Positions 17,835-38,449 of a stretch of DNA of 64,000 bases are shown here, one piece after another. The notes under the pieces are model-generated. The model had not been told where the DNA came from, did not search any database, and saw only the letters and a list, made by a program, of their open reading frames with translations. Positions within the stretch are counted from its first letter, which is position 1. Each line of letters begins with the position of its first letter. Made by a program: the position numbers and the translations under genes. The stretch is from a virus, in the IMG/VR virus record IMGVR_UViG_3300045988_160394, positions 96,001 through 160,000 of that record; one strand, 5' to 3'.

Positions 17835-18080
17835 ATGAACGAAAAATTTAAAAATTATGGATTATGGGTTTCTTTATTCGCTTTACTAGGATTATTCTTA
17901 TCTGATATGAGTTGAATGCCTCATAACTATGATATGTATGTATCAATAATACTAAGTATCTTAGTCGGTTTAGGAATAGTTTCTAGCCCTGAAAAAGGAA
18001 AGTGGTATGGTGATAAACAAGATCAACTTCCACAAGAAAATGAAGAACCTAAAGACATATCTGAAAAAGACAAAAAGTAG
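17835..18080 (+). CDS. holin (phiLC3 / Phage_holin_1-like), one in-frame TGA
   Basis: 81 aa with two hydrophobic segments (LWVSLFALLGLFL; VSIILSILVGLGIV) and a charged tail, in the pattern IL.ILV.LGIV..P..G. TGA at 17913 is codon 27. RBS GGAGG. Missed by the ORF track. Confidence 0.6.
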
Positions 18081-18085
18081 TTAAA

Positions 18086-18112
18086 GGACAGGTTTTATAC
18101 CTGTCTTTTTTA
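18086..18112 (+). terminator. intrinsic terminator
   Basis: ggacagg-ttttata-cctgtct followed by a T run. Confidence 0.75.
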
Positions 18113-18142
18113 TTGCAACAAAACATGAGGAGGGAGTAAGAT

Positions 18143-21100
18143 ATGCAGAATAAATATATACCGTCTCATTTACATACTACTACAGGTAGTATAGGAGACT
18201 CAATAATAAAAATACCAGAACTAATTAAAAAAGCTAAACAACTAGATTTGCCTGCAATCGCCATCACTAATCATGGGTCTATGGCAGATATGTATGATTT
18301 TTATTTTGAATGCGTTTCTAACAATATAAAACCTATTATTGGATGTGAAGTATATACAACTGATGATATGGATTATAAAGAAAAAGATGCAAGACGAAAT
18401 GGACATCTAGTTATTTTAGCAAAGGATAACAATGGATTAAAGAATTTACTATCTATAACAGCCGCTGCACAATTACAAGGTTTTTATTATAAGCCTAGAA
18501 TTGATTATAACTTCTTAGAATCTACTGATACTTCTGGTTTAATAGCTACAACAGCTTGTGCAGGAAGTGATGTTAATCAATTGATATTACAAGATAAAAT
18601 AGAAGAAGCTAAAGAATTGATATTAAGGATTAATAATATATTTGAAACGTTCTTTTTAGAAATCCAACCAGGTGATTTCGATGAACAGAAAAAAATAAAT
18701 AAGCAATTGATAAAATTCAGCAATGAATTAAAGATACCATTAATAGCTTCTAATGATATACATTATTTAAATGCAGAAGATTTTATAGCACATGATGCTC
18801 ATGTTAAAAGCTATAGAAAACAGAAGTTGAATGATACGCTTTATTATCCTGATACTTGTTATTATTTAATGACAAGAGAAGAATTATTTGAAGCGTTATC
18901 TAAATATGTAAATGAAGATATTGCAAATACGGCTATTAATAATACTTTATTATTAAATGATATGTGTAACGTTGTTATAGATGTAAATGAATTAAATCTA
19001 CCTACTTTTCAGTGTCCACAAAAAATGACACCAAAAGCTTATCTAGAATATATCTGTTTACAAAAAATAGATAAAATAAAAGATAAGATTTGTGATGTAG
19101 TAGAGTATACAGATAGAATGTATATGGAGCTAGAAGTAATAGATAAATTAGGGTTCTGTTCTTATTATTTAATAGTAAGAGACTTTATGGAATATGCAAG
19201 AGAAAATAATATACCATATGGACCAGGCAGAGGTTCTGTATGTGGTTCATTAGTAGCTTATTTAGCAGGATTAATAAAGATAGATGCTATTAAATATAAT
19301 CTGTTATTTGATAGATTTTTATCTATTCATAGAACTGGTTCTATTCCTGATGTTGATTCAGATTTTGGATCATCAGGAAGACAAATGATGTTCGACTATG
19401 TTGTTAATAAGTATGGAGCAGATCATTGTGCAGCAGTTTCTACATTCCAAATGAGAAAAGCAAAATCAGCTATTAAAGATGCAGCTAGAATGTTAGACTT
19501 AGTTGAAGAAGGAGAGTGTATAGCTAAACTTATTCCTATGGTCTATTATGATGATGATGGAGATAAATTAACAGATTTATCTATAGAGGATTCTTTAAAA
19601 GCTGTTGAGGAATTAAGAGAATTTAAAGAAATATATCCTAAAATATTTGATATAGCCATGAAGATGGAAGGATTACCTAGATCTTCATCTATACATGCTG
19701 CTGGAACATTAATAGCTAAAACTCCATTGCATGATTTAATACCTATGATTAAGAAAAAAGATAGTGACTTATTAAATGCTACTAGTTTCGATTTATCTCA
19801 AGCAGAGAAAATGAAATTAGTTAAATATGATTTCTTAGGGTTATCTACTTTAGATGTATTAGAAGAAACTAAGAAAACAACAGGTTATTATTTTGATATA
19901 GAATTTGATAAATATGATGATGAAAATGTATGGAAGTTAATAGGTTCTAGAAATACTACAGCTTTATTCCAAATAGCTTCTTCTACTTATAAACAAAGAA
20001 TGTGGAGATTAAAACCACAAACAATAGAAGAATTAGCTGCTTGTTTAGCATTAGTTAGAGGACCTTGTATTTCAGCTAAAACAGATCAAACATATATAAG
20101 AATATTAGAAGGTAAAGAAGAAGTAAAAACAATTCATCCTTTTTATGATAATGCCGTTAAAGATACATTAGGTATTATGATATATCAAGAACAATTAATG
20201 GAATGTTGTCATAATTTTGGTTTACCTTTACATGTATGTTACGATATAATGAAAGCAGCGGCTAAAAAGAAGTTTGATAAACTTGAAAGTTATGAACAAG
20301 AATTGTGGGAATTGGCCGAACCACATATGAGTAAAGAAACTTTCGATATTATCTTTAAGATAATAGTTGATTCTGGATTATATTCATTTAACAAATCACA
20401 TGCAGTTGCTTATGCTACTTTATGTTATGAAACAGCATATTATAAATACTATTATCCTAAAGAATATTTAGCAGCTGAACTTACTAACATTTTTACATCT
20501 GTTGCAGCAGACAAAAGAAAAGAAAGAGTTGCTGAAACTGTTAAAGACTGTAGAAGATTAGGTATTAAATTTTTACCTATAACAGCACAAGATTCTGAAT
20601 GGAAATTTAAAGTCGAAGGTGATTCTATAAGAATAGGTATGTGTTCCATATCTTCTTTTGGTGAAAAAGCTTATAACGCCTTTTCTTTAGTTGAGGATAA
20701 AACAAGTATTGAATCCGTTTTTGAATCTGTTAATAAAACAACCTGTAATAAAAAAGCTTTTAATGCTTTAATATTTGCAGGTGCTTTTGGTGATAGAACT
20801 CAAGCATATTTAAAATATTGTGAATTAAGAGATGAATCACCAGTAGATGAAATAGTTTTTCATAAAACATTACGTGTTAATATATATGAAGATGATAGAG
20901 AAATAGAAGAAAAACTATTATCTTATAATTTTATATATAATCTAACAAACAATTTAAATGCTTTCGGATACAAGAATTTAAAGAAGAAAGCAGAGTTTTA
21001 TTGCGATGCTTTAATTACAAGAGTAAAAACAAAGAATGATAAGAATAAAAATAAAATGGCATGGATAACATTAGAGACAGGAGACGGCATTATAGAAGGT

Positions 21101-21217
21101 GTCGTCTTTGCTAATGTATATGCTAAATATAGAGCTCTTATTAAAAAAGATTCTTTTGTAAAAATTAAAGCAAGAAAAGAAGATGATGAAACTTGTTTTG
21201 TTAGTAGCATAGAATAG
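18143..21217 (+). CDS. dnaE: DNA polymerase III alpha-subunit homologue (DnaE type), copy 1
   Basis: PHP region PSHLHTTTGSIGDS (atypical), PGRGSVCGSLVAYLAGL, catalytic IPDVDSDF, FNKSHAVAYA. No TGA. Confidence 0.9.
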   Translation: MQNKYIPSHLHTTTGSIGDSIIKIPELIKKAKQLDLPAIAITNHGSMADMYDFYFECVSNNIKPIIGCEVYTTDDMDYKEKDARRNGHLVILAKDNNGLKNLLSITAAAQLQGFYYKPRIDYNFLESTDTSGLIATTACAGSDVNQLILQDKIEEAKELILRINNIFETFFLEIQPGDFDEQKKINKQLIKFSNELKIPLIASNDIHYLNAEDFIAHDAHVKSYRKQKLNDTLYYPDTCYYLMTREELFEALSKYVNEDIANTAINNTLLLNDMCNVVIDVNELNLPTFQCPQKMTPKAYLEYICLQKIDKIKDKICDVVEYTDRMYMELEVIDKLGFCSYYLIVRDFMEYARENNIPYGPGRGSVCGSLVAYLAGLIKIDAIKYNLLFDRFLSIHRTGSIPDVDSDFGSSGRQMMFDYVVNKYGADHCAAVSTFQMRKAKSAIKDAARMLDLVEEGECIAKLIPMVYYDDDGDKLTDLSIEDSLKAVEELREFKEIYPKIFDIAMKMEGLPRSSSIHAAGTLIAKTPLHDLIPMIKKKDSDLLNATSFDLSQAEKMKLVKYDFLGLSTLDVLEETKKTTGYYFDIEFDKYDDENVWKLIGSRNTTALFQIASSTYKQRMWRLKPQTIEELAACLALVRGPCISAKTDQTYIRILEGKEEVKTIHPFYDNAVKDTLGIMIYQEQLMECCHNFGLPLHVCYDIMKAAAKKKFDKLESYEQELWELAEPHMSKETFDIIFKIIVDSGLYSFNKSHAVAYATLCYETAYYKYYYPKEYLAAELTNIFTSVAADKRKERVAETVKDCRRLGIKFLPITAQDSEWKFKVEGDSIRIGMCSISSFGEKAYNAFSLVEDKTSIESVFESVNKTTCNKKAFNALIFAGAFGDRTQAYLKYCELRDESPVDEIVFHKTLRVNIYEDDREIEEKLLSYNFIYNLTNNLNAFGYKNLKKKAEFYCDALITRVKTKNDKNKNKMAWITLETGDGIIEGVVFANVYAKYRALIKKDSFVKIKARKEDDETCFVSSIE

Positions 21218-21269
21218 CTCTTTTATAGGGCTATTCAGTACATAACCAAATAAAGAAGGAGGATTAGAT

Positions 21270-22628
21270 ATGTTATATGCATTTACAAGTATAACTAAAA
21301 GTATAAATATTTTAATGAATTACAATAAAACTATTAATGAAAAAACTGATATAGAAAAAGCAAAAGTTAGGCTATTAAATGAACTATCTTTAATAAAGAA
21401 AATGTCAAAAGAATTAACATTAATTTTATATAGAGAACAAGATAAAAACATTTGTGATGAGCTTTATGATGGAGTTAATGCTTTAATATATATAGCTAAA
21501 AACATAACAACAATAGATCAAGTAAAAGATACAATAAATAAATTAACTGAATTTGATTGTTTAGAAGAATTTAATAATATGAATCTTTATAGAACTGATT
21601 TATGTTCTCCTAGCTATGAAATGTCAAACTATGATAGATATATGGGAGAAGAAGAATTAACAACTAAAGAATGTTCTCAAATTTTAACACACATCAATAA
21701 AACTAGAGCATTTAATATTATGAATACTAGAGCAGGAAAAGGTATAACATTTAGTAAATTAAAAAACCAAGAACATGATAAAATTATTACATATGGATTA
21801 GAACATAGAGATATTTATAACGATTTAAAAGAACGTTGTGATAAAACTATAAAAGGTAGATTAGTAGGTTCAAGAATCTCTAATGAAGTCTTTGATGTTA
21901 TGTATTTAAATCCTGAAGTATCATGGGTAGGTGAATTAACTAACGTAGGGAATTTAGCAGAAAAAAGAGAAAAAAGTTGTTTAAGATATCATACTAAGTT
22001 ATTAAGACCAAATGGAATAGTTATCTATAAAATACCTTTCTCTAGATTAACTAATGATATAGCATATAACATTGCAAAGATGTTTAATGATGTACAAGTA
22101 ATAAAAAGAGAAGATAATAGAATACAAGAGATTTTAATCTTTGGTATAAAAGATCAATCTCCTCAACCTAAAGAAGATATCTATGAATATTTAAAGAATT
22201 TAGAATATAATCAAATAGATGACGATTTAGAATTAACATATGAATTACCTCAAGGAGGAATTAAAACTCCTGATATATTTAGAGGTAGTGAATTAGATAA
22301 AGATGATATGTCTAATTTAATTCTTAATAGTGGTCTTATAGATAATTTCTGGAATGAAATAGATGCAAGTAAGCAACAAGAAGAAGCTAGACCATTAATG
22401 CCTTTTAATATGGGGCAAATAGGATTAGTCCTTACATCAGGATGTTTAGACGGCTTAGTTGAAGAATATGAAGGACAATATCATGCTATAAAAGGTATGG
22501 TTGTTAAAGTAAGAAGTAATAATGTTTCTAGTGAAAGAAGTAATGAAGAAATAGATATAGAAACAGTTTCAAATAAAGTACAAATAAATATAGTTACACC
22601 AGATGGTGAATTTGTTGAATTAGCATAA
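21270..22628 (+). CDS. SAM-methyltransferase-like protein (tentative)
   Basis: Motif-I-like NIMNTRAGKG and motif-IV-like DVMYLNPEVSW (an NPPY variant). Paired with the downstream helicase. Confidence 0.45.
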   Translation: MLYAFTSITKSINILMNYNKTINEKTDIEKAKVRLLNELSLIKKMSKELTLILYREQDKNICDELYDGVNALIYIAKNITTIDQVKDTINKLTEFDCLEEFNNMNLYRTDLCSPSYEMSNYDRYMGEEELTTKECSQILTHINKTRAFNIMNTRAGKGITFSKLKNQEHDKIITYGLEHRDIYNDLKERCDKTIKGRLVGSRISNEVFDVMYLNPEVSWVGELTNVGNLAEKREKSCLRYHTKLLRPNGIVIYKIPFSRLTNDIAYNIAKMFNDVQVIKREDNRIQEILIFGIKDQSPQPKEDIYEYLKNLEYNQIDDDLELTYELPQGGIKTPDIFRGSELDKDDMSNLILNSGLIDNFWNEIDASKQQEEARPLMPFNMGQIGLVLTSGCLDGLVEEYEGQYHAIKGMVVKVRSNNVSSERSNEEIDIETVSNKVQINIVTPDGEFVELA

Positions 22629-22645
22629 TAAAGGAGGAATGAAAA

Positions 22646-25600
22646 GTGGACTTATTTAGAATATCTGCAAATGGACTAGGCAGTATTTATTCTGATACTG
22701 TTATATTAGATAGTTATGAAAATGAAATAGTATTCTTTTCAGCTGTAGCTTACAATCCATTAATACAAGCTACAGTAAAACAAGTCTCAAAAGCAGGTTC
22801 ATTTGTATATGTTACTAATTCAGGTTCTTACAAATGTCCTAGACAAGGTTACAATACATCTATAAAAAGAGAATCAAATAGTGAATATTCTCATGTAGTA
22901 GCTTATGCAAAAGACAAGGTAGAATATAGAGAAGACGGATCAGAATTAATAAGAGTATATATATATTGTAAAGATGAATCTGAATTAGTAGAGAAGACTT
23001 ATGATAAATTAGTTAAGTATTCATCTATACCCGTACTTGATGAATGGAAAAGCTATGTTTGTGAAAAATTAATAGCTAATAGATTTTTAAAAAAATTAAG
23101 CGTAAAAACAAATAATAATTCTTTTTCATCAAATTGTTATAAATTAATATGTAATAAAGATTCTATAAAAACAATTATTCAAAGAGGCTTAAAAGAAAAA
23201 GCTATTAATATTAAAGGTAATAACAATCCTTCTGCATTAATGTCAGAAATAAAAGGATTAGATGCTTACTTATCTACATTTGGAGAAATATTGGCTCATA
23301 AAATACAAACAGCTTTTAGACCAAGATTTATTCCAGGAGAAGATAAGTATGATGACTTTACTAATTATTTAGATGATTATGTGTATGATGAAGCTAATAT
23401 TGAAGTATTTGAAGCTCAAAAATCAGTTATTCAAGCGATAACTAATAGTTTAAAAGTACATGACTCTGCTTTCTTAATAGCTGAAATGGGTGGAGGAAAA
23501 ACTTTAATGGGAGCTTCTATTCCATATGTTCATCATGCTAATAGAAATAAAGGTTATAATTCTATAGTAATGTGTCCTTCTCATTTAGTTAATGTTTGGG
23601 ATAGAGAAATTACTGAAAGAATACCTAATGCTAAAGCTTATATCATAAGAGATTATAAAGAACTTATAGACTTAGAACCTAAGCTAAGAAATAAGAATAA
23701 AGTTGAAAATTCTTATGTTATAATTTCTAAAGAAAGAGCTAAATTAGGTTATGATGTAAGACCTGCCGCTATCTGGAGCCGAAGTAAAAATACCTTTGTA
23801 TGTCCAGAATGTGGACAACCTTTATATACAAAAGAGTATGAAGGTAGTGGCAGACATAAAAGAGTAGTTCATGTTCCTTTTAATGAAACTAGTATGTTAA
23901 AACAATTAGCTTACAATAAAAGATGTATGAATGAAATAAAGAAATGGAATGCTAAAGAAGGTAAGTACGACGTTGTACATTGTAATGCTTCTTTATGGAC
24001 TCCATTAAATAAAGAAGACCAAGACCATAAATGGTTAAAGTTAGGTTCTGAAGGTTGGACTTATAAAGACCACGTAGTTACTCTAGTAAATAGATTAACT
24101 AGTTTAGAATCATTAACAAAAAAAGAATCTGCTTTATTAGCTAAACTTATGGAACAGTATGAGCTAATACAAGCAGGAGAAGAACCTTTTTCTAATTATA
24201 AAGGAATAAGAAAATATCCTATAGCAAAGTATATAAGAGAGAGAATGAACAATGTATTCGACTATTGTATAGTAGATGAATGTCATGAAATGAAAGGCTT
24301 AACTGAACAAGGTCAAGCCGCTGCTGATTTAATTTCATCTTCTAAAAAATCTATTTTATTAACTGGTACGCTATTAAATGGATATGCAGATGGTTTATAT
24401 TATTTATTATGGAGAACCGTTCCTAGATTAATGAGAAAAGAAGGTTTTAAATTCTCTGATGAAGGAGAGTTTGCTAGAATATACGGAGTTCATTCTAGAG
24501 AGTCTAGATTCTTAATGAGAAATGGATTAAGACAAAGACGTGTAGGATCTATCAAAGAAAAGAGATTACCAGGGGTATCCCCACTAGCATTTACAAAATT
24601 CTTATTAGAATACGCAGTGTTCTTATCTTTATCAGATATGTCAACAGGATTACCAGGATATGAAGAAATTCCTGTACCCGTTGCTATGGATTATGAATTA
24701 TTTAATGCTTACAGTCAATTTGAAGAAGCTTTTACTTCTTATGTTAGAGGAAGAGGAAGTAAGAAATGCATGGGGCCTTTCTTACAAAACTTATCAGCCT
24801 ATGCTGATTGCCCTCATATGGTTTCTCCTATTGTAGATCCTGATACTGGAGATATAGTATATACTCCTGTAGAATTGCCAAAACAACAAAGAAATAAAGA
24901 AGATGCTCTTTTAAGTTTAGTAGAAGAAAAAGTTAGAAATGGAGAAAAAGTTTTATTATACTATTCATGGGTTAATAAAACAGATGTTGGAGATTCATTA
25001 TTAAATCTATTAAAAGATAATGGTATAACAGCTTTTGAAATGAAATCGAATGTTACTTCTGATAAAAGAGAAGAATGGATAGAAAAGCATATAGCTAAGG
25101 GAATGCAAGTAATGATTTGTAACCCTAAATTGGTTGAAACAGGTTTAACACTGCTAGATTTTACATCCATTATATTTTATCAAATGGGATATAATTTATT
25201 TACTATGAGACAAGCTAGTAGAAGAAGCTGGAGGTTATCTCAAACAAAAGATGTTAAAGTATATTTTATGTATTATGAATCCTCTATTCAAGAACAAACT
25301 TTGAGTTTAATGGCTACTAAATTACAAGCTGCTATGGCACTTGAAGGTAAATTCTCAGAAGAAGGTTTAAGAGCAATGAGTAATAATGAAGATTTATTAA
25401 CTCAAATAGCTAATAATGTTGTAGAAGGAATAAAAGATACAGTTAATCAAGAAATCTTTAAAGCAACAGCTTTTATAAAATCAGATGAAGTAATTAATAG
25501 AGAACATTTGTTGCCTTCTTATATATTTAAAACTAATTTTAATGAATTAGGAGAACAATCAATATTCTCTAAGAAATCATTACAAGAAATACCTGATAGA

Positions 25601-25657
25601 AAAGTAGTTGATGTCAATGAAGATTTTTTAAAGAATCCTATATCTTTATTCCTATAA
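22646..25657 (+). CDS. SF2 (DEAD/DEAH-like) helicase with internal Zn ribbon
   Basis: AEMGGGKT (I), VDECHEMKG (II), LLTGTLLNG (III), QASRRSWRLSQ (VI), CPECG...C Zn ribbon. GTG start after AAGGAGGA. Confidence 0.75.
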   Translation: MDLFRISANGLGSIYSDTVILDSYENEIVFFSAVAYNPLIQATVKQVSKAGSFVYVTNSGSYKCPRQGYNTSIKRESNSEYSHVVAYAKDKVEYREDGSELIRVYIYCKDESELVEKTYDKLVKYSSIPVLDEWKSYVCEKLIANRFLKKLSVKTNNNSFSSNCYKLICNKDSIKTIIQRGLKEKAINIKGNNNPSALMSEIKGLDAYLSTFGEILAHKIQTAFRPRFIPGEDKYDDFTNYLDDYVYDEANIEVFEAQKSVIQAITNSLKVHDSAFLIAEMGGGKTLMGASIPYVHHANRNKGYNSIVMCPSHLVNVWDREITERIPNAKAYIIRDYKELIDLEPKLRNKNKVENSYVIISKERAKLGYDVRPAAIWSRSKNTFVCPECGQPLYTKEYEGSGRHKRVVHVPFNETSMLKQLAYNKRCMNEIKKWNAKEGKYDVVHCNASLWTPLNKEDQDHKWLKLGSEGWTYKDHVVTLVNRLTSLESLTKKESALLAKLMEQYELIQAGEEPFSNYKGIRKYPIAKYIRERMNNVFDYCIVDECHEMKGLTEQGQAAADLISSSKKSILLTGTLLNGYADGLYYLLWRTVPRLMRKEGFKFSDEGEFARIYGVHSRESRFLMRNGLRQRRVGSIKEKRLPGVSPLAFTKFLLEYAVFLSLSDMSTGLPGYEEIPVPVAMDYELFNAYSQFEEAFTSYVRGRGSKKCMGPFLQNLSAYADCPHMVSPIVDPDTGDIVYTPVELPKQQRNKEDALLSLVEEKVRNGEKVLLYYSWVNKTDVGDSLLNLLKDNGITAFEMKSNVTSDKREEWIEKHIAKGMQVMICNPKLVETGLTLLDFTSIIFYQMGYNLFTMRQASRRSWRLSQTKDVKVYFMYYESSIQEQTLSLMATKLQAAMALEGKFSEEGLRAMSNNEDLLTQIANNVVEGIKDTVNQEIFKATAFIKSDEVINREHLLPSYIFKTNFNELGEQSIFSKKSLQEIPDRKVVDVNEDFLKNPISLFL

Positions 25658-29000: not shown

Positions 29001-30247
29001 AAATAAATAAATATTCTTCTGAAGATTATTATTTTGAAGATTTTAATATAACTAGAGCAAGTAGTGGTGTAGGCTCATCACCTAGTGGAGTATTTGGAGC
29101 AGAAGCTCGTAAAAAAATTGTTGAGAAGGCTAAAGAAATTGTTCAATTACATGCAGAAGGCAAAGCAGGATATTCTCAAGGATCACCTCCTGGAAATAGA
29201 ACTGTTAATGACGAACACCGTATAATGGGTAGTAATTCTGTATTAAGTAATGTAGTAGTTTATGATTGTTCTTCATTTGTTTCTTGTTGCTATAAATATG
29301 CTGGATTAAATAGTATGTATAATAAAACTACTTACGATCAAGTAGCAGCAATGACAAGTAAAAAAATGCCTGAACAATTTTGGTTAGCAAATGCAGAAGG
29401 AGTAAAAAAAGCGTTACCAGGGGATTTAATGTTTAAAACCTCAGGTATATCAATGTCAGAAAGCAATATAGGTTCTTATGTTGATACAGAGCATGTAATG
29501 ATATATATAGGAGATAACAAAGTAGCACATGCTTCAAGTGGTAATAGACCAGTTCCAAAACAAATACCTATAGATAATGTTGATTATTATTTAAATTCAA
29601 GACATTTCTTTGCAAGACCTTGGGATTTAATAGAAGCTGATAAACAAGCTCAAGCTAATGGAGTTATAGGTGGAGGAGCTGAAGCAGTAGGAAACATAGT
29701 TACATCTAAAGGAGAAAACTTTGGCTATGTATACTCTTTCCCTAAAGCAGTTTGTTCTGTATATACCGATACTAATAAAGGTGCAAGTGGTGCTATGTGT
29801 ATACCAAGCGAAAGTAATATAGTAGCAGCTCATAATATGCCTTATGAAACAGTTATTTATATTAAAGAACTTGATGGAAAAGGCGGAGGAGGAACTGTTG
29901 CATTTAAAAACTGGTTAGGTATAACTACTCATACTAAAAATTTAGGTCAAGTCAATAACGGAGTCTTTATCGTTGGTGATACTGGTGGTCCATACTTTGA
30001 CTTTGATATATGTACAAATAAGTTTTCTAACAAAGGGAATATGGATGTTTTAGTGTTAGAATGGGGTAAATCAAAAATTCCTTTCTGGTCTTTCACAGAT
30101 GCAATTAACAATGAAGGTAGAGCTTTCCCTAAATATCCAGATGCTATTAGATCATATAAACGTATGAATGGAACAACAATTAACTTCTTTAAATTCAAAG
30201 ATAAAGATAAAGGATTAAGTCAAAGTTCAAAATGGACTTCTATTTAA
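26093..30247 (+). CDS. 1384-aa multidomain peptidoglycan hydrolase (Amidase_2 + SH3 + NlpC/P60 + 3D/DPBB-like), decoded with TGA=Trp
   Basis: ORF-track pieces 26093..26323, 26411..26731 and 26771..30247 share one frame and are joined by TGA at 26321 and 26729. Amidase_2: FIVIHNM...SAHYCVD...[TGA]AGRHCG...NNTSIGIEIAD...HKDVSNTDCPKW. SH3: RYCLLRANP...GYYKVKL..EGWLVAKSV. NlpC/P60: VVYDCSSFVSCCYKYAG...EHVMIYIG. C-terminal end: FIVGDTGGPYFDFDIC. Confidence 0.8.
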
Positions 30248-31017: not shown

Positions 31018-31021
31018 TTTA

Positions 31022-32369
31022 TTATATGGGTGTCGAAAGACTCTTGTTGTTGGTGTACTACGGAGTGTCCCTTAAGCACTTTAAAACCATCAATGGGTAT
31101 GGACATTTAAAACCCATGCCACTGTTCCGTGAATGACGGGTATCGTAAGAGTAGAATATCATTCACTTGTATTGTATGCAATATTAGTCAAGGATAGAAA
31201 TGGCTTCTATCACGCTACTAAAAAGTAGTTGTCAGAGATGTAGGGTTGCCAAACTTACTAACTAATTAGCAAAACTAACTTCGGTATCAAATGATTCAAC
31301 TTTATAGCTAGTGTAATGTCCGTTAAGCATTTAAAAGCTATATGATCAATGAAACTTATGAAAGGCAGAATTATAAGTGGAGATCATCATTCAGGTTTAT
31401 AGTTAGATCCTGTTATGCTTACTTTATTGAATTATAAAATAATCTTTAAAAATAAAATTAATAATGGCGTTAATTGAAAATCTTTTATCACAATAAAACA
31501 ATAAAGGAAAAACATAAAAAAGCTATAATCATAACGATCATACTGATATTTCCTACGGGTTGTCAGTTAATAAATGGAGGCGAGTTGTCCGCAGAATTAA
31601 CCGTAATAGTGGGGATTAATACACTAGGCAATAAATCTACTCCTACATCTAATAGGGTTAGTAGTCTTAGAAAGACTATAATCTTAAAAGGGCAAGGTAA
31701 CAGCTAGAGCACAAATCCTAATCTGAGAAGTTAGGTCGCATTAAGTGGTAAGACACTATTTTTTAAATAAAATCAGTTACTAAAATCTTAATTGACGTGA
31801 GCATTCTTCTTCAGCTATTAATGAAGATGAAAATAAGTCTCTTCTCAGCAGTTGAGTATATGCTATGACTAGTAAAATAGTCTATCCAATATGAGGAGAA
31901 ATATCATATGCGTGGTGGATACAGGTGTATGACATATAGCAGGTCAGTTACCATCGCACTGGCTGTCAATTTAACCTGTAATTTTAATAGAGATCCCCCT
32001 AGGGCTATGTCATTAGGAATAATGTTAACCCCAACTGAGGGCCGTTTAAATCGTTACGAAGTACAAGTAACACTGTAATAGGGACATAAGCTGAGTTCAG
32101 TACGGCTACTACAAAAACATTAAAATCTCGCTACCGTCTAACATAATCCTCTATCATGTTTATTAGCTAAGTTAGACTAGATAATAATACTAAGATAGAT
32201 GCCTAGTTTTGCGAGGGGTCTAGGGTTAATTAGAATTAAAAGTACCTCTCTTTACGGAAATGGGTTACCAGGGTAATTCCCCCTGTAATGTATGTGCTTT
32301 ATGTTTTTTCAATTTTTAGGCTGAAAGAGCCGTCAAGGAGATCGGTTAAGGATACTGATCTCCTAATAT
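31022..32369 (+). ncRNA. candidate large structured non-coding RNA (about 1.35 kb; possibly two RNAs split by an AT-rich stretch at 31440-31545)
   Basis: No credible ORF in any frame even with TGA as sense. G/C visibly enriched compared with the flanks. Many short G/C-rich helices, some with GNRA-type loops: 31032-31041 gtc-GAAA-gac; 31093-31117; 31193-31211; 31997-32004; 32269-32285; 32319-32331; 32337-32363. Bounded by a tRNA-like element and a terminator. The + strand is inferred from these. Confidence 0.45.
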
Positions 32370-32444
32370 CGGAGTATAGTTTATGGAAAACACCAGAAAG
32401 CATTTATGTTGGTAATGTAAGTTCGATTCTTACTGCTCCGACCA
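32370..32444 (+). tRNA. tRNA-like element (acceptor stem + T arm + encoded ACCA) with a non-canonical anticodon arm; isotype not assignable
   Basis: Acceptor cggagta/tgctccg (7 bp, one G-U). T arm gtaag-TTCGATT-cttac. Discriminator A plus CCA. D-arm-like gttt-atgga-aaac. The middle region forms only accag/ttggt with a 12-nt loop. No TCA anticodon is present. Confidence 0.45.
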
Positions 32445-32479
32445 TTAACCACACAAATATATATGTTAAATCAACAAAA

Positions 32480-32513: not shown

Positions 32514-35500
32514 TTATTTAAGTTTAACGGAACTTATAATTAATTGTTTTCTAGAATCTTTTTTACCTTTTATTATAAGAGTTGGTTGAGGTCTATCTTC
32601 TCGAACTTCAAACTTGTCTGAATTAGCACAATATGTTCTAGCAAAAGCTACACAAGGTATTGTTACTCCTTCTGATTCTATCTTAGGGAATGACATCATA
32701 TTACCGTTTTTATCTATTAATTCTCTATTAGATACTACTGTTGCTTCTATTTCAATAGTTTGATTTGTTTCTACTTCATCCCACCATGGTTTATATGTTA
32801 TAGGTAATCCTAAAGTTTTAGTTTCATAATCCATACATACTTTTTCATCATAAGTATCAGCAGTAGGCATTATTTCTATTTTATCTTTTCTTAAAGTATA
32901 AAATTCATTTAATAAAGCATTTCTATTAGTATTAAACTTATCTAATGCTCCTGACTTTATTAATGCTTCTCCTACTCTTTTATTTAAGAACTTTTTAGGT
33001 ATTCTATCCATCATATCTTGTAAAGAAGTGAATTCTCCACTTTCTTTTCTTATTTTTAGTATTTCTTTAACAGCATTTTCTCCTACACCTTTTATAGAAC
33101 CTAATCCATATAATATCTTAAAGTTTTCAGGTAATGGTGTAAAGTCTTTATTAGAGATATTTATATCTGGTAATTCTACTTGTAATCCCATATCTTCTAC
33201 TACAGGTATATATTTAACTCTTTTCTTTTCGTCATCTTGTACTGATAATACAGATGCAAAGAAATCAACTGGATAATATCTTTTTAAGTAAGCTGTTAAT
33301 AATGTTATATATGAATAACAAGCTGCATGAGATTTATTAAATAAGTAAGAAGCATATCCTTCCATATCAGCCCAGAAAGCTTCTAAATCTTTTATATCAT
33401 ATCCATTATTAGATGCTCCTAATATTGGTGCACCATATTTTGCAGATGGATCATACATAGTACAATTTGGATTATTATTATCATATCCTTTTGGTGCTTC
33501 TTCATTTTTCTTACCATAGATTAACCATCTTTTACATAAGTCCATTATAGCTTGTTTCTTTTTAGCTAATGCTTTTCTAAGATATGAGTCTGCTTGGTTA
33601 TCGTCGAACCCAGCAATCTTTTTAGCAATAGCCATTACTTGCTCTTGATATACAATAGTACCGAATGTATCTCCTACGATATCTTCTGTATCATGAACTG
33701 GCATTACTATTTCTTCTAAGCCATTCTTTCTATTGTTATATTTAGTATGCATTCCTGCTTGTAGAGGACCAGGTCTTCCTATTGATGTAAGAACGACTAT
33801 GTCATCCATACTTGTTGGTTGCATATCAGAGATGATACCTTTAAACAAGTCAGATTCTATTTGGAAAACAGCTTCTGTTTCTTTATTACATATCATATCG
33901 AATACACCTTCATCATCTAATTCAACAGTTTTATATAAGTCTTCCCATTCAAGAGTTTCATCTATTGAATGCATAGCTTTATCAATTACACTTACTGTTT
34001 TTAATCCTAAAAAGTCATATTTAACTCCATTACATTCTTCAACTTGAGGACCAGTATATAAAGTAACTTTAACTCCAGTATCAGGATCTATTCTTATAGG
34101 GAATGTATCTGTTATAGGATTAGGAGTAGTAAGTATACCTGAAGCATGTACACCAAAGTTTCTCTTAGTACCTTCAAATCTTCTAGCTAATCTAAATAAC
34201 TCTGGATATTCATTTTCTATTTCTTTAAATTGTCTATATTTTTCAGGGTCAGTCTTTTCGTATTCATCTAAATCTTTAAAAGATATACTAGGAGCTTCAT
34301 CTGTTATTACAGTTATCTTTTTAGATATTTCATCTGTTATTGCATATGGCATATCTAATACTCTTCCTATATCTCTTACTCCTGATTTAACGCCTAATTC
34401 TGAATAAGTTCCTATATGAGCTACACATTCTTCTCCATATACTTCTTCCATATGTTCTATTACTCTATCTCTACCATAATAACAAAAATCTACGTCTACA
34501 TCTGGTAAAGCAGTTCTATCCATAGTTAAGAATCTTGAGAACAGTAATCCATTTTGTATAGGATCTATTACTTTAGTTATTCCTAATAAGAATAATACTA
34601 AACTACCTGCTGCTGATCCTCTCCCTGGACCTGTAGGTATTTTATTGCTATTAGACCAAAATATAAACTCATCTACTGTTAACATATAAGGAGCATATCC
34701 TTTTTTGTTTATTACATATAACTCCCAATTTAATCTAGCTTCATATTCTCTTCTATCATATTCAGGATGTTTAGCTAAATATTTATATAATTTCTTCCAA
34801 CACTTATATGTTAAGTATTTTTCACTTGTATATCCTTTAGGTAATTTAACTTCTGTAAATAAAGGTTTTTCACTTTTTAATCTTATATCTCCGTCTACCA
34901 TTTCAGCTATTAAGTTAGTATTTTCTAATCCTTTTATTACTTCTTCCATATATTCTTCGTTAGGAGCCAATCTTTTAAAAGCATTTACCATTTCATCATA
35001 ACTTCTCATCCAGAACTCTGGTTCATATCTCATTCTATCTATTTCGTCTTTCTTTTTGCCTAATCCTATACATAATAAAGTATCATGATCGTCTATATCA
35101 CTTTGTCTTGTATAATGAACATCATTAGTAGCTATTATTTTTAAGTCTAACTTTTTAGCCAATTTTATTAACTCTATATTTACTTCTTTTTGTACTTCCC
35201 AATCTAATCCTTGTATTTCTACAAATAGATTTTCTTTTCCGAAGATTTCTTTCCATTCAGTTAATATTTTTTCAGCAGTATCTATCTTACCATGTTTTAT
35301 AGAATTAGCTATTACAGAACCTATACATGCAGTTGTACATATTATTCCTTCTGAATACTTTTTAAGTAATTCGTTATCGCAATGAAATCTTGCATTAAAT
35401 AAACCTTTTTCAGATGCTTCACTTTGTATTTTAACAAGATTATGCCATCCTATTTGGTTTTTAGCTATTAATATAATATGATATCCTTTAGTATCGTACA

Positions 35501-35849
35501 TATAAGGTTTTATCAATTCGTTAATTTCTTTTTTAGTTGCTTTTCTAGGTATTTCTATTCCGTTTTTTATTGCTTCTTCTTGTGCTATTTTTGTTCTTTT
35601 ATCTAATGGTAAAGATATCATATCTCTATCCCATGTCCAATATAATTCAACTCCTAATAATGGTTTTATTCCATTCTCCTTACAAGCTGATTGAAACTCC
35701 AATACTCCACCTAAATGATTATGATCTGTTATAGCTAATGCCTTCATATTTAACTCTTTAGCTCTTAATACTCTTTCTAATGGACTTCCCATTCCATCTA
35801 GTAAACTGTAATGAGTATGACAATGTATATGCGTAAAGTTCTTTTCCAT
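32514..35849 (-). CDS. dnaE: DNA polymerase III alpha-subunit homologue (DnaE type), copy 2
   Basis: Canonical PHP HIHCHTHYSLLDG, PGRGSAAGSLVLFLLGI, catalytic LPDVDVDF, FNKSHAACYS. All 14 Trp codons are TGG. Confidence 0.9.
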   Translation of the reverse strand: MEKNFTHIHCHTHYSLLDGMGSPLERVLRAKELNMKALAITDHNHLGGVLEFQSACKENGIKPLLGVELYWTWDRDMISLPLDKRTKIAQEEAIKNGIEIPRKATKKEINELIKPYMYDTKGYHIILIAKNQIGWHNLVKIQSEASEKGLFNARFHCDNELLKKYSEGIICTTACIGSVIANSIKHGKIDTAEKILTEWKEIFGKENLFVEIQGLDWEVQKEVNIELIKLAKKLDLKIIATNDVHYTRQSDIDDHDTLLCIGLGKKKDEIDRMRYEPEFWMRSYDEMVNAFKRLAPNEEYMEEVIKGLENTNLIAEMVDGDIRLKSEKPLFTEVKLPKGYTSEKYLTYKCWKKLYKYLAKHPEYDRREYEARLNWELYVINKKGYAPYMLTVDEFIFWSNSNKIPTGPGRGSAAGSLVLFLLGITKVIDPIQNGLLFSRFLTMDRTALPDVDVDFCYYGRDRVIEHMEEVYGEECVAHIGTYSELGVKSGVRDIGRVLDMPYAITDEISKKITVITDEAPSISFKDLDEYEKTDPEKYRQFKEIENEYPELFRLARRFEGTKRNFGVHASGILTTPNPITDTFPIRIDPDTGVKVTLYTGPQVEECNGVKYDFLGLKTVSVIDKAMHSIDETLEWEDLYKTVELDDEGVFDMICNKETEAVFQIESDLFKGIISDMQPTSMDDIVVLTSIGRPGPLQAGMHTKYNNRKNGLEEIVMPVHDTEDIVGDTFGTIVYQEQVMAIAKKIAGFDDNQADSYLRKALAKKKQAIMDLCKRWLIYGKKNEEAPKGYDNNNPNCTMYDPSAKYGAPILGASNNGYDIKDLEAFWADMEGYASYLFNKSHAACYSYITLLTAYLKRYYPVDFFASVLSVQDDEKKRVKYIPVVEDMGLQVELPDINISNKDFTPLPENFKILYGLGSIKGVGENAVKEILKIRKESGEFTSLQDMMDRIPKKFLNKRVGEALIKSGALDKFNTNRNALLNEFYTLRKDKIEIMPTADTYDEKVCMDYETKTLGLPITYKPWWDEVETNQTIEIEATVVSNRELIDKNGNMMSFPKIESEGVTIPCVAFARTYCANSDKFEVREDRPQPTLIIKGKKDSRKQLIISSVKLK

Positions 35850-35969: not shown

Positions 35970-36695
35970 TTATTCAGGATGATGTTGTGCAATTTTTTGT
36001 TCTAGTTGAGTATACTTACTTTGTAATTCTGTATACTTAGTTACTAGTTCGTTAATTGCTCCTACTATTGTTTTTGCTGTAGTAGTTAATGTTTCATCAT
36101 TTTTCTTTTGATAAGATTGTAAATCAGCAGCAGGACCAGTAGCACCTTGAGCTCCTGCATCTCCTTTAGGTCCTTTAAGTTCTGTAAGAGCTATTAATTG
36201 TTGCCAACTATCAGTTCCTGCATATTGCCATTCAATATGAGTATCACCTTTTTTAAGTTCTATTTGTTTTCCGTCTGCACCTTTTTGTCCTGCAACACCT
36301 TGCTCTCCCCTAGGGCCAGTTTCTCCTGTATCTCCTTTAGCTCCAGGAGCACCATTTTCACCTCTAGGTCCTTGAGGGCCTACAGCACCAGCTTGACCAG
36401 GATCACCTTTTAATTCAGTTAAAGCTATTAATTGATTTCATAGGTCAGTTCCTTTGTATCTTCATTCAATATGAGAACTACCTTTTTGTAATTCTATCTC
36501 TTTACCATCGACACCATTTTTACCAGCAGGTCCAACTGGTCCTTGAGCACCTGTTTCTCCTGGTTGTCCTTTAAGGTTTTTAGTTATTAAATCCATAGTA
36601 GTTGTCTTAGTGGAACCATCTTGTAATATAAGCACATTATCTGCCCCTTTAACAGATACAGCCTTTGGTAATTCACTCATTTTTATTCTTTCCAT
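35970..36695 (-). CDS. collagen-like (Gly-X-Y) tail-fibre protein, 241 aa, two in-frame TGAs
   Basis: 36462..36695 continues in frame through TGA at 36462 and 36438 to TAA at 35970. Contains G-X-Y runs (GQPGETGAQGPVGPAGKNGVDG; GDPGQAGAVGPQGPRGENGAPGAKGDTGETGPRGEQGVAGQKGADG) and a duplicated IEW.Y.GTD.W.QLIALTELKG module. Confidence 0.8.
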
Positions 36696-36714: not shown

Positions 36715-36927
36715 CTATACTAATACATCATTATTATCTTCTGTTACTATTAATTTTTCATCTTCAGTAATTAGAAGTCTATCTTGTGGAGTATTTATAA
36801 CTTCACCTTTTATAATTTTCATTACATCTCTTCCATCAGAAGTGACAAGACTTCCTTTTTTAAACATAACACTACCTTGTATTTTGGTACCTTGATCTAA
36901 GGTCATGTGTAATGGTGGTCATGCCAT
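36715..36927 (-). CDS. hypothetical protein (70 aa); TGA is codon 3
   Basis: ATG 36927 follows AGGGGTG. Reads M-A-[TGA]-PPLH and continues into ORF-track 36715..36906. Confidence 0.45.
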
Positions 36928-36982
36928 TATTAATCACCCCTTTATACATTAAATATAAAGGAGAAAATTAATTCTCCTTTAT

Positions 36983-37147
36983 TTATCTTGCTGGTCTATT
37001 TGGTAGCTCTGGTATATAAGTAGCATCTTTGTTTTGTGCTTTATATACTTTCTTTTGCCACTTAGCAATATCTAAAGTATATGGGTCCTTATAGTCTGAA
37101 CTAGATTTAGTCATAGTTCCATTTCCAAAGTATTTTCCTTTACTCAT
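36983..37147 (-). CDS. small hypothetical protein (54 aa)
   Basis: ATG follows AAGAGGTG and the ORF ends TAA. Below the ORF-track size cut-off. Confidence 0.4.
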   Translation of the reverse strand: MSKGKYFGNGTMTKSSSDYKDPYTLDIAKWQKKVYKAQNKDATYIPELPNRPAR

Positions 37148-37183
37148 TATTAAACACCTCTTTATTAGCTTTTAAAAGCTTAT

Positions 37184-38449
37184 TTATTTTTGTACATATT
37201 TAGCTGATACGTATCCTTCTTTTTTGCCTTTAGAAGTATCGTATTGGATATAATACCATCCATCTTCAGTCCATTTGATTAGAACTTTTTCTCCATTAAA
37301 AACCTTACCTATTACTGAACCATTAATATCGCTTCTTACATTTAAATAAGAATTAACTTTAACTGTTCCGTATACTGGCTTAGATTCTTGATAGAATTTA
37401 GTTCCTTGTTCTCCCTCATAACGAACGTATCCGTCAGAAGGAGTACCGTCCTCTCTATAGAATGTGATACGTAATCTTCCATCAGTTCTATACATTGGAC
37501 TGCATTTTTGATGAGGTTGTAAAATTTCATTATGTTCAGTTACGTTAACATCACCTGCTGACCACCAAACATAAGTTACTCCTCCATCATTAATATATTG
37601 CTTATGATAATCAAATTGCAATCTGTTGTATTGATCTATACTAATATAAGCATGATATTTCTTGCTTCCACCAGGATAAACTAATTCAACATATTTACGA
37701 GAAGGATAAATACCAACTACAAACACTTCGTCGAAAGGTGAAATATATCTTCCTTGTACTGGATTACAGTTTTGATCAAGTACTTGTATATTTCCTTGTC
37801 CTACGATTTTAGCATTAGTTCTCTTTTCATTAGATTCATAGAATCCAGGATTAGAAGAACTTGATACATTATTACTAGAATTAGATGAAGTTGTATTTCC
37901 TCCAGCTATTGCACTATTAGCTATACCTTCTGCTATTAAATTACCAATCTTCTCTGGTCCTGCTTGATGATATAGTCTAACATCTTCTGTAGCTTCACAG
38001 AAACATACTTCAACGATAACAGCTGGCATTGATGTTTTTCTTAATTCATATAACTTAGCATTAGTTTTTACACCTCTGTTTTTAAGTCCAGTTCCATTTG
38101 CCACACTGTTAACTATTCTCTTAGCAATAACTTCTGCTTGTCCACCTAGACCACACACCCATGTTCCAGTACCTAAAGCACCTTCATAATGGTTATAAGC
38201 TTTATCAAAGTGAATACTTATAAATAGATCAGCTCCTCATCCTTCTGCTTTATTAACGCCATAAGCAAGGTCTTCATTAACTCCGCAATTACCAGGAGTA
38301 ACGTCTAGGACTTGATAACCTGCTTTTCTTAAACTGTTAATAACAGCTACATAAACTTTTCTATCTTCTACTGTTTCATTGATTAATGCAGATGCTCCAG
38401 CAGCTTGAAAGTTATGTCCACCTCTTACAGCTATTTTTCTAATTGACAT
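37184..38449 (-). CDS. endolysin: N-acetylmuramoyl-L-alanine amidase (Amidase_3) with C-terminal SH3 domain, one in-frame TGA
   Basis: 38237..38485 and 37184..38158 share one frame, joined by TGA at 38237 (codon 71). Start ATG 38449 follows AAGGAGGA. Motifs: GGHN, [TGA]GADLFISIHF, MPAVIVEVCF. SH3 region: NVRSDINGSVIGKVFNGEKV...GWYYIQY...GYVSAKYV. Confidence 0.85.

What the first reader, a model, noticed from the sequence alone, without database searches (positions are those of the whole stretch)
17835..38449. All three lysis-related genes carry an early in-frame TGA
The holin has TGA at codon 27 of 81, between the two hydrophobic segments. The Amidase_3-SH3 endolysin has TGA at codon 71 of 421, just before the GADLFISIHF motif. 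The 1384-aa hydrolase has TGA at codons 77 and 213, the first of them inside the Amidase_2 catalytic domain. Under the standard code each gene would give an inactive stub, so lysis would require TGA suppression.
Basis: inference. Interest (0 to 1): 0.7.

Follow-up and report, generated by a model that had tools for sequence, protein, structure and literature searches.

The report
TGA-as-tryptophan recoding in a jumbo phage
The in-frame TGAs in the three cell-wall/lysis genes are real, but they belong to a wider reassignment of TGA to tryptophan in the late genes of a ~263-kb gut jumbo phage that probably infects a standard-code Clostridium, which is a phenomenon and a "lysis gate" idea already published for gut phages.

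Summary
The holin has TGA at codon 27, the Amidase_3-SH3 endolysin at codon 71, and the 1384-aa hydrolase at codons 77 and 213.

The TGAs are not specific to lysis genes. In 76 kb of this phage, 21 of 73 genes carry 65 in-frame TGAs against 194 TGG. They are densest in the tail-fibre genes (40 TGA / 31 TGG) and in a sigma-like gene (7/7). They also occur in an SNF2 helicase and a primase.

TGA codes for Trp: it sits in conserved-Trp columns of orthologues. Core replication genes are TGA-free here and in about 9 related phages (2 TGA in 324 Trp codons). Holin, endolysin and hydrolase repeatedly carry TGA, at different Trp positions in different lineages.

The closest endolysin homologues are all from Clostridium sensu stricto or Sarcina, which have the same ~28% GC and use TGA as a stop. 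A relative at 68% polymerase identity has no TGA at all.

This matches the stop-codon-recoded phages of Borges et al. (2021/2022), who already proposed that recoding gates late and lysis genes.

"All three genes carry one" is expected by chance once Trp counts are considered (P≈0.2). The early-position bias is only suggestive (P≈0.05). No opal suppressor tRNA lies in the 76 kb seen.

Verdict: a new member of a known kind.

The parts
17835..18080 (+). Holin, 81 aa with two hydrophobic segments. In-frame TGA at 17913-17915 (codon 27).
   Evidence: Matches phrog_297 'holin' at E=5e-5. Hydropathy. In relatives L007/L028 the orthologue sits directly upstream of an Amidase_3 endolysin. Orthologues carry TGA at other Trp positions: W11 in L039 and L040, W58 in L044.
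26093..30247 (+). 1384-aa multi-domain peptidoglycan hydrolase (Amidase_2, SH3_3, NlpC/P60). In-frame TGA at 26321-26323 (codon 77) and 26729-26731 (codon 213).
   Evidence: Pfam domains; PHROG amidase/endolysin families. Both TGAs fall in Trp columns of the orthologues. Relatives have TGA at Trp columns 49, 70, 157, 334, 354 and others.
37184..38449 (-). Endolysin, 421 aa (Amidase_3 plus SH3_3). In-frame TGA at 38237-38239 (codon 71).
   Evidence: Pfam; phrog_435 at E=7e-57. At position 71, 22 Clostridium-type homologues have W (7), F (8) or N (5). The relative at 85% nucleotide identity (L045) has TGG at 71 and TGA at W97. L047 has TGA at the position-71 column.
40586..41485 (-). Sigma-70-like factor, 299 aa. 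All 7 Trp codons are TGA.
   Evidence: Sigma70_r4 domain; PHROG sigma-factor families. Orthologues have 7/7, 4/5 and 6/6 TGA in L045, L046 and L047.
49310..64000 (-). Tail-fibre / structural block that runs off the window end. TGA is the majority Trp codon: 40 TGA against 31 TGG in 9 genes, counting 2.7 kb beyond the window.
   Evidence: The orthologous block in relative L037 has 61 TGG and 0 TGA.
5715..7382 (+). SNF2-family helicase with TGA at codons 44, 140 and 554. It is a replication-type gene that is nevertheless recoded.
   Evidence: The SNF2-rel_dom match (residues 83-340) spans codon 140.
46178..47188 (-). Primase (PriCT_1) with TGA at codon 285.
   Evidence: The PriCT_1 match (residues 245-311) spans the TGA. 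W is aligned there in relatives.
35970..36695 (-). Collagen-repeat, tail-fibre-like protein with TGA at codons 78 and 86.
18143..25657 (+). The contrasting TGA-free class: DnaE-type PolIII-alpha copy 1, a DUF6094 protein and a 1003-aa helicase. 0 TGA in 18 Trp codons.
   Evidence: Orthologues in the recoded relatives have 0 TGA in 52, 11 and 57 Trp codons.
32514..35849 (-). DnaE-type PolIII-alpha copy 2, TGA-free (0 of 14 Trp codons).
32370..32441 (+). tRNA-like element with an oversized anticodon loop and no UCA anticodon. It is not an evident opal suppressor.
   Evidence: Rfam tRNA model, 45.2 bits. ARAGORN finds it only with introns allowed or a lowered threshold, and then calls the anticodon tta or gca.

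Best explanation
The window is part of a ~263-kb, 27% GC jumbo phage (ENA ERZ1756024 NODE_19). In this phage TGA has been reassigned from stop to tryptophan (genetic code 4) in a defined subset of genes. Terminators are only TAA or TAG.

Genes needed first stay free of TGA and can be read by a standard-code host. These include the two PolIII-alpha genes, the helicases, DnaG, DnaB, RecJ, NrdDG and dUTPase. Late-type genes contain TGA and can be completed only once TGA is decoded as Trp. These include the tail fibres, the collagen-like protein, a sigma-like factor, the holin, the endolysin and the big peptidoglycan hydrolase.

The three lysis-related genes are therefore dependent on suppression, but as ordinary members of the recoded late class and not through a dedicated lysis device.

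Shown: TGA codes for Trp; the gene-class partition exists and is conserved across relatives; there is a TGA-free relative. Inferred: the host is a standard-code Clostridium; decoding is by a phage suppressor tRNA(UCA), or equivalent machinery, encoded outside the 76 kb seen; the switch comes late in infection.
For: 1. TGA codes for Trp. All 12 TGA columns in the hydrolase alignment are Trp in the other orthologues. Across the window, 16 of 42 aligned TGA positions are W in TGA-free relatives and none is G. Pfam domains span the TGAs.

2. The recoding is widespread but uneven. There are 65 TGA against 194 TGG in 73 genes, with heterogeneity P<5e-5. The tail block has 40/31 and the sigma-like gene 7/7. 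All 73 gene models end in TAA (55) or TAG (18) by construction, and none shows signs of an internal TGA terminator.

3. The partition is conserved. In about 9 related phages the replication genes have 2 TGA in 324 Trp codons, holin plus hydrolase have 23 in 135 (P=2e-11), and the sigma-like gene has 17 in 18. Positions differ between lineages, so these are independent events.

4. A relative group at 68% polymerase identity (L007, L028, L037) has no in-frame TGA in the orthologous lysis or tail-fibre genes.

5. Host. All 16 genomic relatives of the endolysin catalytic domain (44-72% identity) are Clostridium sensu stricto or Sarcina, with 26-32% GC. Those loci use TGA as a terminator in 9 of 107 ORFs. 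The phage encodes three peptidoglycan hydrolase domains and an anaerobic NrdDG.

6. The pattern matches the published description of TGA-recoded gut phages of Firmicutes.
Against: - No tRNA(UCA), RF1 or TrpRS was found in the 76 kb available or in 634 kb of related loci.
- The host assignment rests on endolysin homology and base composition only.
- An SNF2 helicase (3 TGA) and a primase (1 TGA) break a simple early/late split.
- The timing of expression is not known for any gene.
- With the two heavily recoded relatives removed, the lysis-versus-replication contrast is only P=0.047.
Confidence: 0.82

Rival explanations
1. Strong form of the reader's idea. Selection specifically keeps an early 'sentinel' TGA in each lysis gene, so that premature or host-forced expression yields an inert stub. 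The lysis genes are the target of the recoding, not bystanders.
For: - The lysis genes sit inside TGA-free replication blocks yet carry TGA.
- Every recoded lineage examined has TGA in at least one lysis-related gene, at shifting positions. Holin: W11, codon 27, W58. Endolysin: W71, W97. Hydrolase: W49, W70, W77.
- In hydrolases with only 1-3 TGAs, the first is always among the first three of about 22 Trp codons.
- Borges et al. report lysis-gene bias in two other clades.
Against: - The early-position test is weak: Fisher P=0.048 over non-independent lineages and 0.07 with one lineage per group.
- There is no early bias across the whole window (P=0.22).
- The TGA share in lysis genes (12-17%) is lower than in tail genes (56%).
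- Phage L039/L046 has no TGA in its endolysin (0/6) or hydrolase (0/22).
- L041 and L043 holins have none.
- Drift of TGG to TGA under AT pressure in any late gene would produce the same picture (P≈0.2-0.5).
Confidence: 0.3
2. The host itself reads TGA as Trp (a code-4 organism such as a mycoplasma), so TGA is an ordinary sense codon and nothing is gated.
For: The low GC (27%) and the TGA=Trp assignment are what a Mollicutes phage would show.
Against: - TGA is almost absent from replication genes in about 10 lineages (2 of 324 Trp codons) but is the majority Trp codon in tail genes. A native code-4 setting with AT pressure should spread TGA everywhere.
- The phage carries Amidase_3, Amidase_2 and NlpC/P60 peptidoglycan hydrolases with SH3 wall-binding domains, which would be useless against wall-less Mollicutes.
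- The endolysin is 57-72% identical to Clostridium/Sarcina genes.
- A close relative is TGA-free.
- For phages whose hosts share the alternative code, Borges et al. report about 90% of genes with in-frame TGA. Here the figure is 29%.
Confidence: 0.04
3. There is no phage suppressor. The TGAs are read at low efficiency by the host's own tRNA-Trp. Leaky UGA read-through is known in Bacillus subtilis (from my own knowledge, not checked here). On this view the TGAs act as translational attenuators that keep lysis proteins scarce.
For: - No suppressor tRNA was found in the sequence available.
- The lysis genes carry only 1-2 TGAs each, which a leak of a few per cent could pass.
Against: Genes with 7-16 TGAs (the sigma-like factor and the tail fibres) could not be completed by a few-per-cent leak per codon, so efficient decoding must exist in infected cells. 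Most of the genome was not searched.
Confidence: 0.08
4. The TGAs are artefacts or decay (sequencing errors or pseudogenes), or they encode Gly (code 25) or selenocysteine.
For: None beyond the bare presence of in-frame stops.
Against: - Only TGA interrupts frames, never TAA or TAG. ORFs of up to 1384 codons remain open in 27% GC DNA.
- TGAs fall in conserved Trp columns; none of 42 aligned positions is Gly.
- The same protein sequences occur on 6 independent contigs.
- 65 sites is far too many for selenocysteine.
Confidence: 0.01

Closest known systems
TGA-to-Trp (code 4) recoded gut phages of standard-code Firmicutes: the Jade, Sapphire and Agate clades of Borges et al. 2021 (bioRxiv 10.1101/2021.08.26.457843; Nat Microbiol 2022)
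   Same: - Low GC.
- Genome size in the range of the large recoded clades (means about 150-210 kb; this phage is 263 kb).
- TGA=Trp in only a fraction of genes: 29% here, against clade means of 26-71% reported.
- Recoded structural and lysis modules scattered among largely standard-code replication genes, with recoding in the replication machinery 'variable'.
- Close standard-code relatives that have almost no TGA stops.
- The proposed late-gene and lysis gating.
   Different: - Clade membership could not be tested because no terminase lies in the sequence seen.
- No suppressor tRNA, TrpRS or RF1 'code-change module' was found next to the lysis genes.
- The lysis genes here are sparsely recoded (1-2 TGA each), not preferentially.
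- The most biased gene is a sigma-like factor, which that paper does not mention.
TAG-to-Gln (code 15) recoding in crAss-like and Lak phages
   Same: A partial, late-gene-biased reassignment of a stop codon in phages of standard-code hosts. Code 15 has been confirmed by metaproteomics (PMC9523058).
   Different: A different codon and amino acid, and Bacteroidota hosts. That paper's text does not mention code 4, and I found no experimental validation of TGA=Trp in phages.
Phages of code-4 or code-25 hosts (Mollicutes, Absconditabacteria)
   Same: In-frame TGA is read as an amino acid.
   Different: There the code is the host's own and about 90% of genes carry TGA. Here the replication genes avoid TGA and the phage targets a walled, Clostridium-like host.
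Classical nonsense-suppression genetics (phage amber/opal mutants grown on suppressor hosts)
   Same: Full-length protein depends on a suppressor tRNA. An early nonsense codon gives an inactive stub.
   Different: Those are laboratory mutations. Here the codons are fixed, numerous, sit at conserved Trp sites, and are shared as a gene-class pattern across a phage family.

Membership tests
Stop-codon-recoded (code 4) phage of a standard-code host | In-frame TGA inside conserved genes, aligned with Trp in homologues | tested here: met
   All 12 hydrolase TGA columns are Trp in the orthologues. 16 of 42 aligned TGA sites are W and none is G. Pfam domains span the TGAs.
Stop-codon-recoded (code 4) phage of a standard-code host | TGA not used as a terminator; ORFs lengthen under code 4 | tested here: met
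   ORFs of at least 100 codons total 60.5 kb under code 11 and 75.8 kb under code 4, and the longest grows from 1172 to 1389 codons. All 73 gene models end in TAA (55) or TAG (18) by construction, with none needing a TGA stop. Two C-terminal TGAs remain ambiguous: SNF2 codon 554 of 555 and one in a small ORF.
Stop-codon-recoded (code 4) phage of a standard-code host | Only part of the genome is recoded; early/replication genes are readable in the standard code | tested here: met
   21 of 73 genes carry TGA. Replication genes have 2 TGA in 324 Trp codons across relatives. Exceptions are the SNF2 helicase and the PriCT primase.
Stop-codon-recoded (code 4) phage of a standard-code host | Phage-encoded means of code change (suppressor tRNA-UCA, RF1 or TrpRS) | tested here: inconclusive
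   None was found in the 76 kb seen. The one tRNA-like element lacks a UCA anticodon. Borges et al. detected suppressor tRNAs in only 35% of code-4 phages.
Stop-codon-recoded (code 4) phage of a standard-code host | Host uses the standard code | tested here: inconclusive
   This is indirect. The endolysin's closest homologues are all in Clostridium/Sarcina genomes of matching GC, and those loci use TGA stops. No CRISPR-spacer or prophage link was available.
Stop-codon-recoded (code 4) phage of a standard-code host | Low-GC, TGA-depleted standard-code relatives | tested here: met
   L007, L028 and L037 (68% polymerase identity, 29-30% GC) have TGA neither in frame nor as a terminator in about 55 genes.
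Named Borges clades (Jade / Sapphire / Agate) | Placement in the large-terminase phylogeny | not testable with these tools
   No terminase lies in the window or its flanks, and the clade reference sequences are not held.
Holin | Small protein with at least one transmembrane segment, a charged C-terminus, and genetic linkage to an endolysin | tested here: met
   Two hydrophobic segments and a charged tail. Matches phrog_297 at E=5e-5. The orthologue is adjacent to an Amidase_3 gene in L007. There is no Pfam hit, and function is untested.
Amidase_3 (N-acetylmuramoyl-L-alanine amidase) endolysin | Pfam PF01520 above the gathering score, with a wall-binding domain | tested here: met
   Amidase_3 scores 82.2 bits against a cut-off of 27. 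SH3_3 scores 32 bits against 27.
Lysis function of the 1384-aa hydrolase | Acts at lysis, as opposed to being a virion-associated entry enzyme | not testable with these tools
   Amidase_2 (52.9 bits, cut-off 26) and NlpC/P60 (25.3 bits, cut-off 23) are present. Its PHROG hits include both endolysins and a minor tail protein. Its size and its position among replication genes do not decide the matter.

The most novel reading that the evidence does not exclude
In this jumbo-phage family the code switch may sit at the top of the late programme. A sigma-like factor has essentially every Trp codon as TGA in all four recoded lineages where it was seen (24 of 25 codons, counting the window), so it cannot be made until TGA is decoded. 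On top of this, selection may keep one or two 'sentinel' TGAs near the 5' end of the holin, endolysin and hydrolase genes, with the position turning over between lineages. That would be a two-layer gate on lysis, acting on both translation and transcription, which has not been described.
Probability: 0.2. Interest if true: 0.6.

Novelty: new member of a known kind. Interest (0 to 1): 0.35.

Why it matters
For annotation, standard-code gene calling shatters this phage's lysis, tail and sigma genes. The public gene calls show the hydrolase, tail fibres and sigma-like gene in fragments.

For biology, the window adds a Clostridium-type jumbo-phage lineage to the recoded phages. It comes with TGA-free, sparsely recoded and heavily recoded relatives within 68-89% polymerase identity. 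That gives a graded series for studying how a stop codon is captured and which genes are allowed to use it first. It does not open a new question, because the lysis-gating hypothesis is already in the literature and still awaits experimental testing.

Tried and rejected
- Megablast of 20 kb against INPHARED phages gave no match. tblastn of PolIII-alpha gave at most 33% identity to any deposited phage, so there is no cultured relative.
- Default ARAGORN found no tRNA in the window, its flanks or 634 kb of related loci.
- Rfam found one tRNA-like element in the window. Its anticodon loop is 3-5 nt too long and has no UCA. An exact search for its T-arm and acceptor in IMG/VR found nothing. I therefore rejected it as the opal suppressor.
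- A scan for UCA anticodon-arm hairpins across the window gave one AT-rich chance hit at 36413.
- Rfam found nothing on five related loci.
- The ORF-free stretch 31.0-32.5 kb has no nucleotide match in any fetched relative.
- Internal restart after the TGAs is rejected. None of the downstream ATGs (17916, 26411, 26771) has a ribosome-binding site, whereas the true starts do.
- Truncated PolIII-alpha hits (P0040 and others) looked like TGA truncations but are interruptions by homing endonucleases or introns.
- Code 25 (Gly), selenocysteine and pseudogene readings are rejected.
- The published Nat Microbiol version of Borges et al. is not held, so I used the preprint.


Full report
**1. The observation**

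The window is 27% GC. Genes run on the + strand up to about 30.2 kb and on the − strand from 32.5 kb.
- Holin, 17835-18080 (+), 81 aa, TGA at codon 27.
- Hydrolase, 26093-30247 (+), 1384 aa, TGA at codons 77 and 213.
- Endolysin, 37184-38449 (−), 421 aa, TGA at codon 71.

The 421-aa endolysin start and the other two starts each have a GGAGG-type ribosome-binding site. The ATGs that follow the TGAs do not.

Pfam Amidase_3 (residues 7-178) and Amidase_2 (31-149) run straight across the TGAs. The holin matches PHROG 297 'holin' and has hydrophobic segments on either side of codon 27.

**2. The TGAs are not confined to lysis genes**

Two exact-protein look-ups placed the window on ENA contig ERZ1756024 NODE_19 (263,172 bp) and added 12 kb of flanks. 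In these 76 kb, 21 of 73 gene models contain 65 in-frame TGAs against 194 TGG. All models end in TAA (55) or TAG (18).

TGA-containing genes:
- SNF2 helicase: 3 TGAs, one inside the SNF2 domain.
- PriCT primase: 1 TGA, inside the domain.
- Collagen-repeat protein: 2 TGAs.
- Sigma-70-like protein: all 7 Trp codons are TGA.
- Tail-fibre block from 49.3 kb onwards: 40 TGA against 31 TGG.

The distribution among genes is strongly uneven (permutation P<5e-5). These genes have none:
- The two DnaE-type polymerases.
- The 1003-aa helicase.
- DnaG, DnaB and RecJ.
- NrdD/NrdG and dUTPase.
- The 16 genes upstream of the window, apart from one doubtful 70-codon ORF.

**3. What TGA means**

- In an alignment of ten hydrolase orthologues, every one of the 12 columns where any sequence has TGA is a Trp column in the others.
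- Over all window genes with orthologues in TGA-free relatives, 16 of 42 aligned TGA positions are W, 7 are Y or F, and none is G.
- At endolysin position 71, 22 homologues have W (7), F (8) or N (5). Those sharing the local motif YGVNKAE-x-W-G-x-DLF have W.

TGA is therefore Trp (code 4). It is not Gly, not selenocysteine, and not decay.

**4. Relatives**

Homologues of PolIII-alpha and RecJ led to a large family of 150-290 kb phage contigs from metagenomes; one record name says gut. I fetched DNA for about ten lineages.

One group (L007, L028, L037; 68% polymerase identity) has no TGA in frame and none as a terminator in about 55 genes. This covers its holin, its adjacent Amidase_3 endolysin, its hydrolase, and tail-fibre genes with 61 TGG.

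The lineages at 71-74% polymerase identity, and one at 85% nucleotide identity (L045), are recoded. Their syntenic genes split in the same way as in the window:

| Gene class | TGA / Trp codons |
|---|---|
| Replication genes | 2 / 324 |
| Holin + hydrolase | 23 / 135 |
| Sigma-like gene | 17 / 18 |

The positions differ between lineages:

| Gene | Position of TGA | Lineage |
|---|---|---|
| Holin | conserved W11 | L039, L040 |
| Holin | codon 27 | window |
| Holin | W58 | L044 |
| Holin | none | L041, L043 |
| Endolysin | W71 | window, L047 |
| Endolysin | W97 | L045 |
| Endolysin | none (a different, Amidase_2-type endolysin) | L046 |
| Hydrolase | W49 | L040, L042, L043 |
| Hydrolase | W70 | L041, L044 |
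| Hydrolase | W77 and W213 | window |
| Hydrolase | 8-9 sites | L044, L047 |
| Hydrolase | none | L039/L046 |

. Lysis-related genes thus belong consistently to the class in which TGA is allowed. 'All three carry one' is not a conserved rule.

**5. Host**

All 16 genome hits to the endolysin are Clostridium sensu stricto or Sarcina (C. perfringens, C. chrysemydis, C. mediterraneense and others). Identity is 57-72% (one at 44%) over the catalytic domain, and GC is 26-32%. In those loci TGA terminates 9 of 107 ORFs, including one endolysin homologue.

The phage carries three peptidoglycan-hydrolase domains with SH3 wall-binding modules, and an anaerobic ribonucleotide reductase. Replication genes avoid TGA almost completely despite strong AT pressure. 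Together these argue against a host that natively reads TGA as Trp. The host assignment is still an inference.

**6. Mechanism**

Shown:
- TGA codes for Trp.
- The gene-class partition exists and recurs across relatives.
- Under the standard code the three products would be a 26-aa peptide with one transmembrane segment, a 70-aa fragment and a 76-aa fragment.

Inference from family knowledge of Amidase_3 and Amidase_2 zinc sites: the two enzyme fragments would lack the second zinc-ligand histidine and the catalytic residues that lie downstream.

Inferred:
- TGA-free genes are translated first by host machinery.
- A phage-encoded tRNA(UCA), possibly with RF1 or TrpRS, then allows the TGA-containing set to be completed.

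I could not find the decoding factor. There is no tRNA(UCA) in the 76 kb or in any related locus. The one tRNA-like element (32370-32441) has an oversized anticodon loop without UCA. About 187 kb of the genome could not be reached.

**7. Is there anything special about the lysis genes?**

Within the window there is not. Given their Trp counts, the chance that all three carry at least one TGA is 0.20-0.48. Their TGA share is 4 of 32, no higher than other non-structural genes and well below the tail genes.

The 'early' placement is nominally significant in the window (P=0.03, post hoc). In hydrolases with few TGAs the first is always one of the first three Trp codons. The combined test is only P=0.048 over non-independent lineages, or 0.07 with one lineage per group. 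There is no early bias across the window as a whole (P=0.22).

TGG and TGA exchange quickly even between the window and its 85%-identical relative. The endolysin has W71 against W97. Gene 42791-43513 has 0/4 against 3/4. The primase has 1/1 against 0/1. Drift under AT pressure in any late gene would explain the presence of a TGA without selection for a gate.

The gate is therefore mechanically plausible. It is not shown to be an adaptation, and it is not specific to lysis.

**8. Comparison with what is known**

Borges et al. (preprint 10.1101/2021.08.26.457843; Nat Microbiol 2022) describe the following, all of which apply here:
- TGA-to-Trp recoded phages of standard-code Firmicutes in animal and human guts, including large-genome clades.
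- Recoding in 26-71% of genes.
- Structural and lysis modules recoded, and replication genes variably so.
- TGA-depleted standard-code close relatives.
- An explicit model in which recoding blocks premature expression of lysis proteins.

What is not in that paper is a sigma-like factor recoded at essentially every Trp codon, or any analysis of where within genes the recoded codons sit. These are leads, not results.

**9. Verdict**

This is a new member (a Clostridium-type jumbo phage lineage) of a known kind. Interest is modest.

Noticed in passing
window 40586-41485 (-): A sigma-70-like protein has all 7 Trp codons as TGA and no TGG. Orthologues in three other recoded lineages have 7/7, 4/5 and 6/6. 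It is the most consistently recoded gene in the replication-side block, which would make a transcription factor itself dependent on the code switch.
   Followed up: partly
window 31020-32450 (+): An ORF-free, higher-GC stretch of about 1.4 kb lies in the convergent gap between the two gene blocks. It contains a skipping-rope RNA (31183-31266, 57.6 bits) and a tRNA-like element (32370-32441, 45.2 bits) with a 10-12 nt anticodon loop. Relatives L039, L046 and L047 have only about 40-60 nt between the flanking genes, so this is an insertion specific to this lineage. Its function is unknown.
   Followed up: partly
window 18143-21217 (+) and 32514-35849 (-): There are two DnaE-type PolIII-alpha paralogues, only 29% identical to each other. 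Both are free of TGA and both are conserved in the relatives.
   Followed up: partly
window 17835-18142 versus L007 8861-9911: In the TGA-free relatives the holin is followed by a 254-aa Amidase_3 endolysin. In the window that gene is missing. The endolysin at 37184-38449 is only 31% identical to it but 57-72% identical to Clostridium/Sarcina genomic endolysins, which suggests endolysin replacement by horizontal transfer. L046 has yet another type (Amidase_2-SPOR-SH3_5) at the same site.
   Followed up: partly
L038 3042-8238 and 10001-14379; L042 3905-7065 and 14535-18717: In some relatives NrdD, PolIII-alpha and the helicase are split by HNH or LAGLIDADG homing-endonuclease insertions (introns or inteins). 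The resulting truncated polymerase proteins in the database look like TGA truncations but are not.
   Followed up: no
window 42791-43513 (-), 46178-47188 (-), versus L045: The relative at 85% nucleotide identity differs in which Trp codons are TGA. Gene 42791 has 0/4 in the window and 3/4 in L045. The primase has 1/1 against 0/1. The endolysin has W71 against W97. TGG and TGA therefore exchange rapidly.
   Followed up: partly
window 5715-7382 (+): An SNF2 helicase with 3 TGAs sits in an otherwise TGA-free replication block. One TGA is the penultimate codon (TGA AAA TAA), which could equally be a terminator. No orthologue was available to decide.
   Followed up: no
window 41499-42095 (-): A Bax-inhibitor-1-like multi-pass membrane protein (Pfam Bax1-I on the L045 orthologue) lies immediately downstream of the sigma-like gene. 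It has no Trp codons at all. A role in membrane or lysis control is possible but untested.
   Followed up: no
L007, L028, L037 (IMG/VR 3300045988 contigs and OCIU01000024.1): The standard-code relatives use TGA neither as a sense codon nor as a terminator in about 68 kb, so the codon is effectively unassigned. This is the intermediate state predicted for codon capture.
   Followed up: partly
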